Below are positions 42,001 to 48,000 of a stretch of DNA of 64,000 bases, in pieces; position 1 is the stretch's first letter; each line of letters starts with the position of its first letter. The position numbers are program-made. The stretch lies in contig CAVQRT010000031.1 of NCBI GenBank assembly GCA_963715195.1, positions 1-64,000 on the forward strand, read 5' to 3'. The DNA is from Thermodesulfovibrionales bacterium. Lineage in GTDB: Bacteria; Nitrospirota; Thermodesulfovibrionia; Thermodesulfovibrionales; SM23-35.

Positions 42001-45000
42001 AATACATTTTCTTGCATAATTTGACAAATCATCATAGGAAAAATTCCACGGTAGAAAAGCATTGATTCGGTATATGTCAAGAAATGATAGTTGACAGAAG
42101 AGAAAAAATTAATAAAATTAGAAAAAAGGGGTAGTTTTGATGTTTGCGTCAGATCATATTATCGATGCTCACATTTTGGATTTTTTTTGTTGCTCTTCAC
42201 AAATTTTGGGGGTTCGACATTTCACCTCCAGAGTTCCACATAGCCAGCTGTCAGAAACATCGGTAGGTTTTTCGTCAGGGGCACCCGCAGTATAAAAAAA
42301 CAAAAAACATTGGGTTAGGGTGTTCAAGTATACCTTTGTAAAATAAGGGAGGACCCTATGGGATTATTCGATAAGATTTTGGGAGGACAGAAGAAGGAAT
42401 ATCCTCCGCTCGATCTGTCTAGCCCAACCGGGCAAACCGTTCAACAGTTAAAGGGTGCACTTGAAATGATCACGAAACAGATCAACGATCCGATGGAAGT
42501 CGTGCCGGGAAGTGATAAAACATTCGTTTTCGTCGGAAAACCACCGCAACAATTCGGCATGCTCTGGATTCAGGGGGGAGCGGTTCATAACTTTGCGAAA
42601 CTTGCAAAAGAGAAAAATATACCCCAAGTTCAGTTTCAGTTGCTCTCTGAGAAACTCCGTGAAGCCTACAAAAAAAATGCACCCCAAGAGAGATTCTCGA
42701 CGAAGGTTGCAAACAAAACGATTACGATTATGCCATCTGATTCCTTAGGAATGGAAGTAAATCGTATAATAGAGAATCTCAATGGTTGATAATGAAGGTT
42801 TGTTAAGCAAGATCAGTGAGGGCGAGGTTAAAATCTCGTCCTTTTTTTTGAGTAGTTCTCCTCCTAATAATCTAAGCTTTTCGTTGAAAGTGTCATTCAA
42901 TACCCTTACAGCCTTTGCCATGTGAGCCGGTGCAAGATTGGAATGCCGGATGGGTCATACCCCAAAGATTTATGACCTAAGAGCCTCGACACAGTTGTCA
43001 GGTCAACACCTGCCACTACTAAATGAGAAGCAGATGTATGCCTGAGATCATGAAAATGAAAATCCTTTATACCAGCTTTTCTACATACTGAATGAAAGCT
43101 TCTCTTGACGTCATCATATTTCATACCAGTTGAGGGATAATAAAAAACATGAGGAATGTCAAGACTTCTATCTGTAAAAAGAGCAAAATCGTGCATGAAT
43201 TGGTTTAAGACGCTCATCGACTGGTAACGTGTTTATGCGGTCGGTATTTGCGTTTTATTGTTGTAATGGAATGCCGGGGAGCGGACACCTGCTGTTGTGA
43301 CATCCTTTGGATACCTGCACTTTTGAACTTCTGTCCTTCCTCTCTTCTTCCTTGGCACTTATTCTGAGAAATAGTGCCGATTTTGTGGGCTTCAAATGTT
43401 TCCGGTTTTTTCTGCTTACAGAGGCGTTGCGAACCGGTAAACTGGGTATCGTACACAGGCGCCACCTTTTTATAATCGAATCCCTTCATGGTGCGACGCT
43501 CCATCTTTTCTCCGAGCACAAGCTCGATGTTGAGCACAACGCCCTCGTCTTCACGGGTAATGAACGAGAAGGCATCGCCGCTCTTTTCTGCTCGGCCGGT
43601 TCGTCCTATCCTATGCGTGTACGCATCGATAGTATCGGGCATATCGTAGTTGATGACGTGGGATATGCGTAAGATATCGATACCGCGGGCTGCGATATCA
43701 GTCGCAACAAGAATCCGATAGAAGCCGTTACGGAATCCGTCCAGTGCCGCTTGGCGCCTATTCTGAGAAAGGTTTCCTTGCAGCGATACGGCCCGGTAGC
43801 CGGCCTTCTCCAGCTGCTGTCCCACGCGCTTTGCGCGGTGTTTGGTACGAGTAAAGATAAGGACTGACTCCGTATCGTTCTGGTCCAGCACTTCAAGGAG
43901 GAGCGAAGTTTTGAGGTGTTGATCCACAGGGTATAAAGCATGAGCGACCGTACGTGCCGGTGCAGCAGGATCGACTTGCACGGTGATTGGTATGTGCAGG
44001 ATTTCGCGGACAAGCCGCCGGATATCATCTGGCATAGTTGCCGAAAACAACAGCGTCTGCCGTTTAGCCGGCACATGCTTGATGATCTTCCTGATATCGG
44101 GAAGGAAACCCATGTCGAACATCCGGTCCGCCTCATCCAAAACGAGCACTTCCAGATGCGACAGGTTTATCATACCGTGATTTATGTGATCGAGCAGGCG
44201 GCCGGGGCAGGCAACGACGATCTCTACCCCGCTGCGCAGTTTCTGTATCTGCAGGTTCATACTTACGCCGCCATATATGCTTACGCTCCTGAGACGGGTC
44301 TGTCGTCCCATAGTGTTGATTGCTTCGTGGATCTGCTCGGCAAGCTCGCGAGTGGGGGCGATGACGAGGGCTCTAACATGCCGGCCTCCCCCTTGCATCA
44401 GACGATGCAAAATCGGTAGTATGAAAGCGGCGGTCTTTCCGGTACCGGTCTGTGCGAGGGCCACAACGTCTCGCCCCTCTAGGACCGGAGGTATTGCCTG
44501 CACCTGGATCGGCGTTGGTGAGACATAGCCTGCTGCCGTTATCCCAGCTGCAACCCGGGGGTGAAAATTAAAAGCGTGAAATTCCATAAATTCTTCAAAC
44601 TCCTTTTTTAGGTCTTATCCAGTTTAATCCAATAGATTTGCCCACGCGATACGTGTTCATATTCTCTGTCCGGCTGAGGGAGCCTTGCCCAATTCCTTAG
44701 AGTTTAACTACATTAATCGCCTTGGGACCTTTCGGGCCTTCTTCGGTATCAAAGCTAACGATGTCACCTTCGGTGAGGCTCTTAAAGCCATTACCCTGGA
44801 TAGACGTATGGTGTACAAAAACATCATTGCTGTCTTCACTGGTGATGAAGCCAAACCCTTTGCTGTCGTTGAACCACTTCACAGTTCCTTGTTTCATGCT
44901 GTTTACCTCCTTATCCTTAAATTAAAATCTCAGAAGGACTCAATAAAAAAGGCCACAAAGCTAAAAGTCTTTGTGGCCCTCTGTGAACGCAAAAACTCCT

Positions 45001-48000
45001 AAAATCTTGTCTATACGGTAGCACTTCCCAGCAGGTTAGTCAAGGTAATTCAGGAGTGACAGGGTATCGGGGGAGGTGAGTAATGCTTTCTTAAAAAACT
45101 TTATTGGGTAATTCTCCAGCATTATTATCTATGCCTTTTCCAATTGTCTCACATCATGACAGATAGTGCCCCGGATATGAATCTGTTCAGTTGGGATGTT
45201 TCCAATTGCTAATTATCTGTGGTGAGTATTCTCACCTCGACAAAGTGTTCCTGATGATCGTCAACAAGGGGAATAGCTTGGTCGTCGCGCTCAACGCCGT
45301 CGACTGTTACACTCATCTCTCTTTTCCCATTGCGCTCTTGCATGATGATAATATGATAAACAGTTTCTCGGTATCGGTAGTGCACCTTGAACATCTCCCA
45401 ATCAGCAGGGAGGCACGGAACGATTCGCAGTTTTTCCTTTTCAAGTTTCAAACCTAGGAGCGACTCCACGATAAGCCGGTACATCCATGCAGCTGAACCC
45501 GTGTACCACGTCCATCCGCCGCGGCCTGTATGCGGCGAGAGCGCATAGACGTCGGCTGCGACAACATAGGGCTCCACTTTGTAGGTCGCAATTTCCTCAG
45601 GAGATCGTGCATGGTTCAAGGGGTTGATCATTGCCAACAGTTCCCATGCACGCTGGCTATCGCCCAATTCAGCGAACGCCATTGCTGTCCAGATTGCTCC
45701 ATGAGTATATTGTCCGCCATTCTCTCTAACACCTGGGACGTATCCTTTAATGTATCCGGGGTTCAAATCCGACGTGTCGAATGGGGGGTCCAGGAGGCGG
45801 ATTAACGCGTGGTCTCGGTCAACGAGGCGCTTGTCAACTGCTTCCATTGCTTTACGCGAGCGCGCGGTGTCCCCTGCTCCAGATAAAACGGACCAGCTTT
45901 GTGCAATCGAGTCAATCTGACATTCGGAATTGTTGGCCGAACCGAGCGGCGAGCCGTCGTCGAAGTAAGCTCGGCGGTACCACTCACCATCCCAGCTATG
46001 CTGTTCGATGTTCTGGCGCAGTTGAGCCGCCTCCCTTTGGCATCGCTCGACAAAGGGCAGGTCACCATGCATGCGGGCAACCTCAGAGAACCGCGTAAGC
46101 ACTGTGTAAAGGAAGAATCCCAACCAAACACTTTCGCCTTGGCCTTTTGCCCCCACAAGGTTCATACCATCGTTCCAGTCACCGGAGCCTATGAGAGGCA
46201 GGCCGTGCTCACCAGTCTTGAGGCCCTTAAGAACGGCTCGCACACAGTGTTCGTACAAACTGGCTGTTTCTTCGGACTGGCTGGGCAGGTCGTAATACGA
46301 GTCCTCCTCTGCATTTATCGGGCGGCCTCTAATGAAATGGATAGATTCGTCCAAGACCCCAGTGTCCCCTGTGTTCAGAACGTAGCGGCACGTCACCAAC
46401 GGCAGCCACAAATAATCATCCGAACAGTGTGTCCGTACGCCTCGCCCTGAATGGGGATGCCACCAATGCTGTACGTCTCCCTCTTGGAACTGGCGGGCTG
46501 CGCAGCGGAGCAAGTGCTCCCGCACGAGACGCGGCTCAGCGTGCACGAGTGCCATCACGTCCTGCAACTGATCACGGAAACCAAATGCGCCTCCCGGCTG
46601 GTAGTATCCGTTCCGAGCCCAGAGGCGGCACGCTATCGTTTGATACAAGAGCCAGCCGTTGGTCATAACGTTGATGGACTGATCGGGTGTTTCTACATTC
46701 ACTGCTCCGAGAGAGTGATTCCAGTAGTGCCAGACTGCCTCGAGTGCGACTCGTGCCGCGCCAGATCCACGAAATCTATGCACCAAGTTTCTGGCATCAT
46801 TGGCATCTCTCCCTACACCGAGTCTGAAGATGATCTCACGCTCTTGCCCGTCCGACAGATCGAATGGGACCTGGATAGCAGCGCAAGGATCCAAAGCGGC
46901 CCCCACCTTTCCCGAAAGCCTCGACTGCGTCATAGCAGCAGGATTTCGAAGTGTGCCATTACGGCCAAGGAACTCAGTCCGGTCGCAGCTTACGGTACGT
47001 GTCGTATCGTCCGCATCGAAGAAGGCAATCCGTTCGGCGAACTCCGTGTTGTATGGGTTCCTTGCGAAGAGAGCGCCGCTGCTGGGGTCAATTTTGGTCA
47101 CTATATGCATTGCCGACTTCGGACGCAGATTCCCAAGCACCCATTCCACGTATCCCGTAGCGGAGAGTCGTCGCGGGCGGCCTGATTCGTTCCTGATCTT
47201 TAACACCATGAACTTGATCGATGCGTCCAAGGCCACATAAACCCACAGCTCAGAGACAATGCCGGCCTCCGTATGCTCGAATATGCTGTAGCCAAATCCG
47301 TGCCGTATGACGTAAGGCGTCATTCCACGACTGGGCAGCGGCGTAAGGGACCAGAAGTGGCCGCTCTCTTCGTCACGGAGGTAAAAAGCTTCTCCACTCG
47401 AATCGCTCACGGGATCGTTGTACCAAGGTGTGAGGCGGAACTCGTGGGCATTCTCGCTCCAGGTATAGGCAAAGCCATGCTCTGAGATAATGGTTCCGAA
47501 ATTTGGGTTCGCTATCACATTCGTCCACGGTGCCGGTGTGACTTGACTGTGTGTCGTCGTAACCACGTACTCCCGACCGTCAAGCGTGAACCCTCCTAGC
47601 CCATTGAAGAAAATCAGATCTTGTCGAGAAAGCCCTGAGTTCGCCAAAGGTTCAACGCGATGCATTGTGGTCGGTATGATAGGCGGAACGCTCACTTCCG
47701 GCAGACGTCGACGGTGAATCTGGTCCCACAGTGTCCCTCTGCTATCGGTGAGGATAGCGCGAGCGACCACTTGGAGGAGAATGCGGTCCTCGTTCGGTAT
47801 CTGGTCGGCAGCTCGCACAAAGATGCCACCTGGGCGATCGGTCATGTTCGCCTCGATGCCTGCGATCAGATCCATGATTTGTTCGTGGAGCAGTTGCCGG
47901 TAGCCGGTGTGATCTTCGTTCCAGATCACCAGGTCCACCGCCAACCCTTTCAACCGCCAGTATGCGTGGGCCTGGACGAGTTGGCGCACCAGTTCGATAT

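What a model noticed while it worked through the whole genome (the two positions that open the first line are those of the whole stretch)
44897..45009. Conserved attenuator-like RNA leader in front of cold-shock-protein genes
Four csp genes (C31:44697, C7:351122, C28:5725, C7:135594) share an ~85-nt 5' leader in which an outer helix encloses a terminator-like hairpin with a near-invariant CAAAGACUUUU motif and a U-tract, ending about 26 nt before the start codon. The element is conserved across the order and once precedes an RRM gene, which fits feedback control by single-strand RNA-binding proteins.
Evidence so far: Four copies here at E 4e-17 to 2e-22, each 25-30 nt upstream of a CSD gene. 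Found in 32 of 41 relatives; of 25 loci, 23 lead into a CSD gene, 1 into an RRM gene, 1 is cut by a contig end. Consensus of 21 sequences: 24 pairs, 5 with two-sided changes, covariation term -2.4 kcal/mol. The only Rfam hits are sub-threshold cspA matches that span the coding region. Search 90 listed no paper on this motif.
(Added by a program. Inside this text positions count along the whole contig: contig position 1 is position 1 of the stretch shown here. "Call 12" and the like, gene names such as g00115 and contig names such as C1 are that model's own, and its searches are not shown. The text may have been shortened before it was handed on; [...] marks where a part breaks off. The agent that wrote the report below was given it as the finding of a first reader that could run no searches.)

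Follow-up and report, generated by a model that had tools for sequence, protein, structure and literature searches.

The report
Cold-shock gene leader with antiterminator switch
This is a real, uncatalogued RNA leader in front of cold-shock protein genes of Nitrospirota bacteria whose built-in transcription stop signal is masked by a competing fold, and the masking strand looks like a cold-shock protein binding site, so the protein probably switches off its own gene.

Summary
In detail: four copies, each before a csp gene, with matches in 32 of 41 genomes.

A sigma-70-type promoter puts +1 at about 45008. The 5' segment AGRAGUUUUUG pairs with the invariant CAAAGACUUUU as an 11-bp antiterminator that excludes the terminator hairpin. 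It co-occurs at 10-11 of 11 pairs in 78 of 83 true hits of an arm-blind search, against 0 of 35 chance hits. Its core, GUYUUUG, resembles the B. subtilis CspB consensus GTCTTTG.

In folding models the antiterminator wins at the termination point, and blocking the arm lets the terminator form (22 vs 73 of 75 leaders). That outcome hardly changes between 10 and 37 C.

Short variants without the outer helix precede RRM genes; diverged copies precede DEAD-box and TypA-like genes. The leader is not RF01766 or Chlorobi-RRM.

Best reading (0.55): a Csp-sensing intrinsic attenuator giving negative feedback, with the logic of the Rho-dependent csp switches of E. coli. Binding and termination are inferred, and antiterminator covariation is weak. 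This scan earlier noted this leader in a relative and analogous csp leaders in other phyla.

The parts
45038..45043 (-). -35 hexamer TTGACT of a sigma-70-type promoter
   Evidence: homologues: TTGACT 36, TTGACG 11, TTGACA 8 among 82 promoter calls in 83 leaders; not listed by the simple scan
45015..45020 (-). -10 hexamer TACCGT (17-nt spacer); inferred +1 at about 45008
   Evidence: the -10 element ends 13-15 nt before the antiterminator arm in 70 of 83 leaders; +1 is inferred
44996..45008 (-). 5' strand of the outer helix P0, which can form only on read-through RNA
   Evidence: 5 of 13 pairs with two-sided change, 89.5% of cells paired
44990..45000 (-). Antiterminator 5' arm AGGAGUUUUUG; its GUUUUUG core (44996-44990) resembles the Bs-CspB consensus GTCTTTG/T
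   Evidence: PMC1904285
44963..44973 (-). Near-invariant CAAAGACUUUU: 3' partner of the antiterminator, and also the top of the terminator 5' arm plus loop
44951..44978 (-). Intrinsic-terminator hairpin: 10-bp stem, 8-nt loop
   Evidence: 97.1% of cells paired, 5 of 10 pairs with two-sided change, 54 cells, 0 of 500 shuffles; median about -16.6 kcal/mol in 75 leaders
44942..44950 (-). U-tract UUUUUUAUU
   Evidence: at least 6 U in 8 nt in 75 of 75 leaders; at least 5 in 85 of 85 gene-linked hits against 5 of 36 chance hits
44924..44936 (-). 3' strand of the outer helix P0
44906..44912 (-). Shine-Dalgarno AAGGAGG, outside P0
44697..44897 (-). csp gene, 66-aa cold-shock-domain protein
   Evidence: PF00313 E 1e-28; closest solved relatives CspLA, CspC, CspB
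43214..44587 (-). DEAD-box RNA helicase gene 110 nt downstream, probably co-transcribed (inferred)
   Evidence: PF00270 and PF00271; spacing

Best explanation
The leader is a protein-sensing transcription attenuator. As RNA is made from +1 (about 45008), the U-rich arm pairs with CAAAGACUUUU before the terminator's 3' arm has left RNA polymerase. The terminator cannot finish folding while polymerase sits on the U-tract, so transcription reads through. The full RNA then refolds into the hairpin plus the 5'-terminal outer helix, which leaves the ribosome site free. When free cold-shock protein (or another single-strand U-binder such as the RRM protein) is abundant, it binds or melts the GUYUUUG arm, the terminator folds in time, and transcription stops after about 65 nt. 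This is negative feedback on csp and on other RNA-handling genes that carry the leader. SHOWN by computation: conservation, promoter spacing, mutual exclusion of the two helices, order of folding, gene context. INFERRED: the start site, actual termination, Csp binding and the sign of regulation.
For: Arm-blind search: 10-11 of 11 antiterminator pairs in 78 of 83 uncut gene-linked hits, 0 of 35 uncut chance hits and 0 of 31 other own-genome terminators. Reciprocal terminator-blind search: all 90 csp-linked hits among 120 metagenome hits carry hairpin plus U-tract. The terminator loop bases A-C are near-invariant, which the antiterminator pairing explains (U-A 74 of 75, G-C 70 of 73). The antiterminator is the minimum-energy fold of the nascent window RNA at 46-58 nt and dominates in 70 of 75 leaders at 37 C. 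With 9 nt hidden at U7, the terminator is formed in 22 of 75 free leaders, 73 of 75 with the arm blocked and 33 of 75 with a sham block (37 C). The arm core matches the Bs-CspB consensus, exactly GUCUUUG in 10 of 47 rows of A3. Downstream genes are csp, RRM, DEAD-box, TypA-like or the csp operon partner. Precedents for Csp negative feedback on its own leader: PMC12360218 (passages) and PMC5815144 (abstract).
Against: No binding or transcription data. Antiterminator covariation is weak: 2 of 11 pairs two-sided in A2 with 368 of 500 shuffles as high; 6 of 11 pairs but only 7 cells in A3; and 15 A.G or G.G mismatches among 208 at the wobble position. An arm conserved as a protein site could be complementary partly by descent. 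'Some upstream pairing' is common in ordinary terminators (18 of 31 controls above 0.5). 22 of 75 leaders are predicted to terminate even when free. U-rich sequence matches the CspB consensus easily. E. coli Csps can act as antiterminators (PMC9765468 abstract), which would reverse the sign. Forms without a U-tract keep the arm (C7:102199, L231, L493), so the arm has a role beyond termination.
Confidence: 0.55

Rival explanations
1. Kinetic cold sensor without protein: the antiterminator-to-terminator refolding race is lost in the cold, so cold alone raises read-through. This can act together with Csp feedback.
For: The refolding barrier rises from 13.1 kcal/mol at 37 C to 19.4 at 10 C (no pseudoknot path modelled). 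The genes are cold-adaptation types. The E. coli csp switches respond to both cold and Csp.
Against: Equilibrium outcomes hardly change with temperature: antiterminator in 65, 68, 70 and 69 of 75 leaders at 10, 25, 37 and 50 C; free terminator in 22 of 75 at 10, 25 and 37 C. It does not explain why the arm sequence itself, not just its pairing, is fixed.
Confidence: 0.17
2. Positive control: Csp, RRM or the DEAD-box helicase melts the terminator or helps the antiterminator, so the proteins promote their own read-through.
For: CspD attenuates intrinsic terminators in E. coli (PMC9765468 abstract). The terminator 3' arm (G/U)CUUUG also resembles the CspB site.
Against: The terminator is about 8-10 kcal/mol stronger than the antiterminator, so melting should hit the antiterminator first. 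B. subtilis CspB/CspD favoured termination at several sites (PMC8307031 passages). Self-amplification fits poorly with known csp feedback.
Confidence: 0.12
3. Mainly a post-transcriptional element: the long 5' stem sets mRNA stability, nuclease processing or ribosome access, as in the S. aureus cspA hairpin, and the U-tract is a Csp site rather than a terminator.
For: P0 covaries and begins at the inferred +1. Forms without a U-tract keep P0 and the arm. The Shine-Dalgarno is less accessible in the antiterminator fold (median 0.30 vs 0.49; lower in 35 and higher in 5 of 74). An RNA contig bridges the U-tract.
Against: Stem plus an immediate U-tract is kept in 85 of 85 gene-linked hits. Short variants lose P0 but keep arm, hairpin and U-tract. 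The ribosome site lies outside both helices.
Confidence: 0.12
4. A small-molecule riboswitch, or a palindromic DNA operator (CACAAAG-N8-CTTTGTG).
For: A near-invariant core, and dyad symmetry in the DNA.
Against: The invariant bases are accounted for by alternative pairing. The stem covaries as RNA and the loop length varies. The U-tract is one-sided. The genes are RNA-handling, not metabolic.
Confidence: 0.04

Closest known systems
Rho-dependent csp leader switches of E. coli/Salmonella (Delaleau et al. 2024, Mol Cell; seen only as passages of review PMC12360218)
   Same: Premature termination in csp (and deaD) leaders, relieved in one fold and restored when Csp binds the leader: negative feedback.
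   Different: Those use Rut-site masking and Rho. This leader has a compact intrinsic terminator with an overlapping 11-bp antiterminator and a CspB-like heptamer in the arm; no shared sequence was found in the leader.
Rfam RF01766 cspA thermoregulator
   Same: Structured 5' region of a csp mRNA.
   Different: The model spans 428 nt with UTR-CDS pairing. The window scores 27.8 against 78; high scores in homologues come from the CDS and 3' terminator (control 73.8 bits without this leader).
Chlorobi-RRM motif, RF01697 (Weinberg et al. 2010, PMC2864571; table and supplement passages seen)
   Same: Cis motif with a terminator-labelled hairpin, named for RRM genes; its proposed feedback role is recalled, not read.
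   Different: Different sequence and phylum; the model does not hit this leader.
S. aureus cspA 5' UTR autoregulation (PMC5815144, abstract seen)
   Same: Csp binds a U-rich motif in its own leader and disrupts a hairpin, giving negative feedback.
   Different: It acts through RNase III processing after transcription; the abstract describes no terminator switch.
Protein-dependent intrinsic attenuators such as B. subtilis TRAP/trp and PyrR/pyr (recalled)
   Same: Protein binding prevents an antiterminator so that an overlapping terminator forms.
   Different: Those sense a metabolite through a dedicated protein. Here the proposed sensor is the free level of a general RNA chaperone that the operon itself encodes.

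Membership tests
RF01766 cspA thermoregulator | Reaches the gathering score of 78 bits | tested here: not met
   Window 27.8. One of 10 homologue loci passes (L207, 83.3), but a csp gene lacking the leader scores 73.8 (L217) and the L207 leader aligns poorly.
RF01766 cspA thermoregulator | Leader pairs with the coding region in the consensus fold | tested here: not met
   The leader folds on itself as P0 plus hairpin, with covariation; many consensus UTR-CDS pairs are non-standard.
RF01766 cspA thermoregulator | Temperature-dependent alternative fold that controls translation | tested here: inconclusive
   Equilibrium models are nearly flat from 10 to 50 C; the kinetic barrier is temperature-dependent; no probing data.
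RF01697 Chlorobi-RRM | Match to the covariance model | tested here: not met
   Two weak hits in the genome (17.9 and 15.2 bits, cut-off 45), neither at a leader copy.
Protein-dependent intrinsic attenuator | Promoter upstream, with the element inside the 5' UTR | tested here: met
   Promoter-like pair at fixed spacing in 70 of 83 leaders; a consensus match only, start site not mapped.
Protein-dependent intrinsic attenuator | Intrinsic terminator: GC-based hairpin followed by a U-tract | tested here: met
   the simple scan did not list it.
Protein-dependent intrinsic attenuator | Overlapping, mutually exclusive antiterminator that forms first | tested here: met
   covariation support is weak.
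Protein-dependent intrinsic attenuator | A protein binds the leader and shifts termination | not testable with these tools
   Only motif likeness to Bs-CspB and an in-silico block of the arm.
Rho-dependent csp switch | Rut site and Rho dependence | not tested
   Not examined; the leader is short and carries an intrinsic terminator.

The most novel reading that the evidence does not exclude
The leader is a minimal gauge of free single-strand-RNA-binding capacity. One strand, CAAAGAC, the exact complement of the Csp consensus, slides between two Csp-like sites that flank it, so the choice between read-through and termination is set directly by unbound Csp/RRM protein. The same switch governs a small regulon of RNA-handling genes (csp, RRM, DEAD-box helicase, TypA-like GTPase). 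It would be an intrinsic, Rho-free counterpart of csp feedback, possibly repeated in other phyla where this scan noted terminator-bearing csp leaders.
Probability: 0.35. Interest if true: 0.82.

Novelty: new variant of a known kind. Interest (0 to 1): 0.66.

Why it matters
How cells hold cold-shock protein levels in check is understood only in a few model species, through Rho, RNase III or translation. This leader offers a switch of about 65 nt with a defined antiterminator, a defined terminator, a predicted protein site and some 250 natural variants. Feedback by an RNA chaperone at an intrinsic terminator could therefore be tested with a plain in vitro transcription assay. It also bears on the open question of whether Csps promote or prevent termination, and adds an RNA family for Nitrospirota.

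Tried and rejected
Rfam scans: only RF01766, driven by the coding region, plus weak chance hits. RF01697: no hit at the leader.

Equilibrium RNA thermometer: rejected as the main mechanism. DNA operator: rejected on covariation and loop-length variation. Paralogy alone: rejected.

False model hits: C14:90808, L211, L233 and L234 are terminator-like hairpins with no csp gene behind them.

Reads: all four runs are contigs, so no start, end, strand or level can be read. The lack of cover at 45014-45217 proves nothing, and no silent control stretch was laid. Partner protein: no Pfam or NCBIfam family, and only unnamed Atlas clusters at high score.

Literature: searches listed no paper on this motif. 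Term look-ups in the main texts of PMC11109978, PMC8632094 and bioRxiv 10.64898/2026.10.21.760802 found no csp or Nitrospira mention. Their supplements were not searched (closed for the preprint) and could list the motif. Subscription papers, including Delaleau 2024, are outside the library.
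Full report
OBSERVATION. The stretch 45008-44898 (minus strand) is the 5' leader of a 66-aa cold-shock-domain gene (PF00313), followed by a DEAD-box helicase gene. It folds into an outer helix around a 10-bp hairpin and U-tract (z -4.5). Three more copies lie before csp genes on C7 (two) and C28. The genome has 11 csp loci: 4 with the full leader, 3 with a diverged form lacking the U-tract (E 1.9e-4 and 0.019) and 4 with an unrelated leader. The C28 gene is frameshifted. C31 and C7:351322 are a recent duplicate, but against C7:135594 the terminator block is 94% identical while third codon positions are 51% identical, so the leader is under selection. 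A DNA search matched 32 of 41 genomes.

DISTRIBUTION. Covariance models matched 60 of 151 phylum genomes (R1, E up to 0.05) and 56 of 151 (R2, E up to 0.02). These include 27 of 27 in family f19 of another class, and none in f17, f18, f24 or f26 among those searched. Two genomes of family f11 have a csp gene with a different leader. In the phylum of G182, whose record is titled Syntrophaceae, 10 of 151 genomes matched: 6 strongly, all before csp; 2 weakly before csp; 2 falsely. Binning errors cannot be excluded there. None of 120 viral hits led into csp.

First, a promoter: TTGACT-17 nt-TACCGT at 45043-45015. In homologues the -10 element ends 13-15 nt before the arm in 70 of 83 cases, so +1 falls at the first base of the outer helix (inferred). 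Second, an antiterminator: AGGAGUUUUUG (45000-44990) pairs with CAAAGACUUUU (44973-44963). This helix takes the top of the terminator's 5' arm and its loop, and also part of the outer helix, so it excludes both.

TWO BLIND TESTS. A pattern without the arm gave 121 hits. 85 lead into csp (81) or the csp partner gene (4); of the 83 not cut short, 78 have 10-11 of 11 antiterminator pairs. The figure is 0 of 35 for uncut chance hits and 0 of 31 for other terminators of the own genome. A pattern without the terminator's 3' arm gave 120 metagenome hits (4 cut): 97 have hairpin plus U-tract, including all 90 that lead into csp, and 19 have neither.

COVARIATION. Alignment A2 holds 75 leaders: 68 of 75 cluster representatives plus 7 added by hand. 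They were picked with a pattern that required an arm-like motif, so A2 is biased towards the arm. The terminator is well supported (97.1% paired, 5 of 10 pairs two-sided, 54 cells, 0 of 500 shuffles), as is the outer helix. The antiterminator is 92.5% paired but weakly covarying (2 of 11 pairs). In 47 more diverged rows (A3, which includes some false or misaligned rows), 6 of 11 pairs show a two-sided change in only 7 cells, and one pair runs U-G 15, U-A 13, C-G 10, C.A 1 (Fisher p 0.03, clades not independent). Matched insertions on both strands occur in L191, L487 and L503. The arm is thus conserved in sequence, not just in pairing, as expected if it is also a protein site.

FOLDING IN TIME. 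The antiterminator is the minimum-energy fold of the nascent window RNA at 46-58 nt; the terminator takes over from 61 nt, and the outer helix closes only past the U-tract (15 C). The antiterminator dominates the nascent RNA in 70 of 75 leaders at 37 C, 65 at 10 C and 69 at 50 C. A caution: some upstream pairing also occurs in 18 of 31 ordinary terminators at the 0.5 level, and in 4 of 31 at 0.8. Taking the recalled geometry of intrinsic termination (3' end at U7, 9 nt hidden in the hybrid), the window terminator has probability 0.17 with 8 nt of its 3' arm free and 0.88 with 9. With the heptamer blocked it forms at 5 nt. Across A2 at 37 C the terminator is formed in 22 of 75 free leaders, 73 with the arm blocked and 33 with a sham block; at 10 C the counts are 22, 72 and 26. 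The equilibrium is therefore nearly temperature-blind, though the refolding barrier grows from 13.1 to 19.4 kcal/mol between 37 and 10 C.

THE ARM AS A PROTEIN SITE. B. subtilis CspB prefers GTCTTTG/T (PMC1904285, abstract and passages). The arm core is GUUUUUG, or GUCUUUG in 10 rows of A3, and CAAAGAC is the complement of that consensus. The window Csp is a close relative of solved CspLA, CspC and CspB. This is a likeness, not a binding test, and U-rich RNA matches it easily.

GENE CONTEXT. Of 250 distinct matches classified by motif, 235 precede csp, 8 an RRM gene, 6 the partner gene and 1 a DEAD-box helicase; the set holds a few mis-anchored rows (families checked for one example each). L477 precedes a TypA-like GTPase fragment (best family, below the whole-protein cut-off). 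Short variants keep arm, hairpin and U-tract but lose the outer helix; others keep the arm and outer helix but lose the U-tract. The C7:351322 operon continues with the partner gene, an 80-aa gene and genes that look like RRM and KH proteins by sequence.

EXPRESSION. Contigs from metatranscriptome runs cover the gene. One (X3, record 18; 4 differences over 44669-44983) bridges the U-tract, which fits read-through if it derives from RNA. It continues into different sequence below 44669, so it represents a sister operon. This is weak evidence.

MECHANISM. Most likely (0.55) a Csp-sensing intrinsic attenuator: the antiterminator gives default read-through, and free Csp on the arm lets the terminator form. 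Rivals: a kinetic cold sensor (0.17, compatible with the first), positive control by Csp antitermination (0.12), a mainly post-transcriptional element (0.12; Shine-Dalgarno access is lower in the antiterminator fold in 35 of 74 and higher in 5), and a riboswitch or DNA operator (0.04).

COMPARISON. It works like the Rho-dependent csp switches of E. coli (review PMC12360218, passages; the original paper was not read), like S. aureus cspA autoregulation (PMC5815144, abstract) and, by recall, like TRAP/PyrR attenuators. B. subtilis CspB/CspD favoured termination at some sites (PMC8307031, passages), whereas E. coli CspD attenuates it (PMC9765468, abstract). It is not a member of RF01766 or RF01697. 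Searches and look-ups found no description; supplements of those surveys were not searched and may bear on this. Earlier notes of this scan mention this leader in a relative (e1-2339145) and terminator-bearing csp leaders in other phyla; the sequence look-up returned only the first.

VERDICT. A real, apparently uncatalogued cis-regulatory RNA; a new variant of a known kind; interest 0.66.

Noticed in passing
G000 C7:351322 operon (L152:875-1240 minus); L030, L034, L039, L092, L104, L490, L502: An uncharacterised cysteine-containing protein of about 120-140 aa follows csp, or directly follows the leader where csp is lost. No Pfam or NCBIfam family; only unnamed Atlas clusters.
   Followed up: partly
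window 44588-44696: The hairpin after the csp stop codon looks truncated compared with the C7:351322 duplicate, which could favour read-through into the DEAD-box helicase gene.
   Followed up: no
G000 C28:5913 and C6:81324: One csp gene is frameshifted behind an intact leader, and another is truncated after about 38 codons.
   Followed up: partly
G000 C7:417619, C7:9235, C16:30843, C6:81324: Four csp genes share a second, unrelated conserved upstream region without a terminator.
   Followed up: no
G000 C7:102199-102299, C3:7755-7860, C34:11390-11495; L231, L493: Diverged leaders keep the outer helix and an arm-like segment but have no U-tract; possibly a translation-level or ancestral form.
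   Followed up: partly
L477:69-165, L499:94-203: The leader precedes a TypA/BipA-like GTPase gene and a DEAD-box helicase gene.
   Followed up: partly
L214, L215: Family f11 csp genes have a different leader with two small hairpins.
   Followed up: no
window 45209-53929 (minus): A 2906-aa protein with GH94 and glucoamylase-like domains ends about 170 nt upstream of the csp promoter.
   Followed up: no
window 42906-43217 (minus): A phage-integrase C-terminal fragment overlaps the end of the helicase gene.
   Followed up: no
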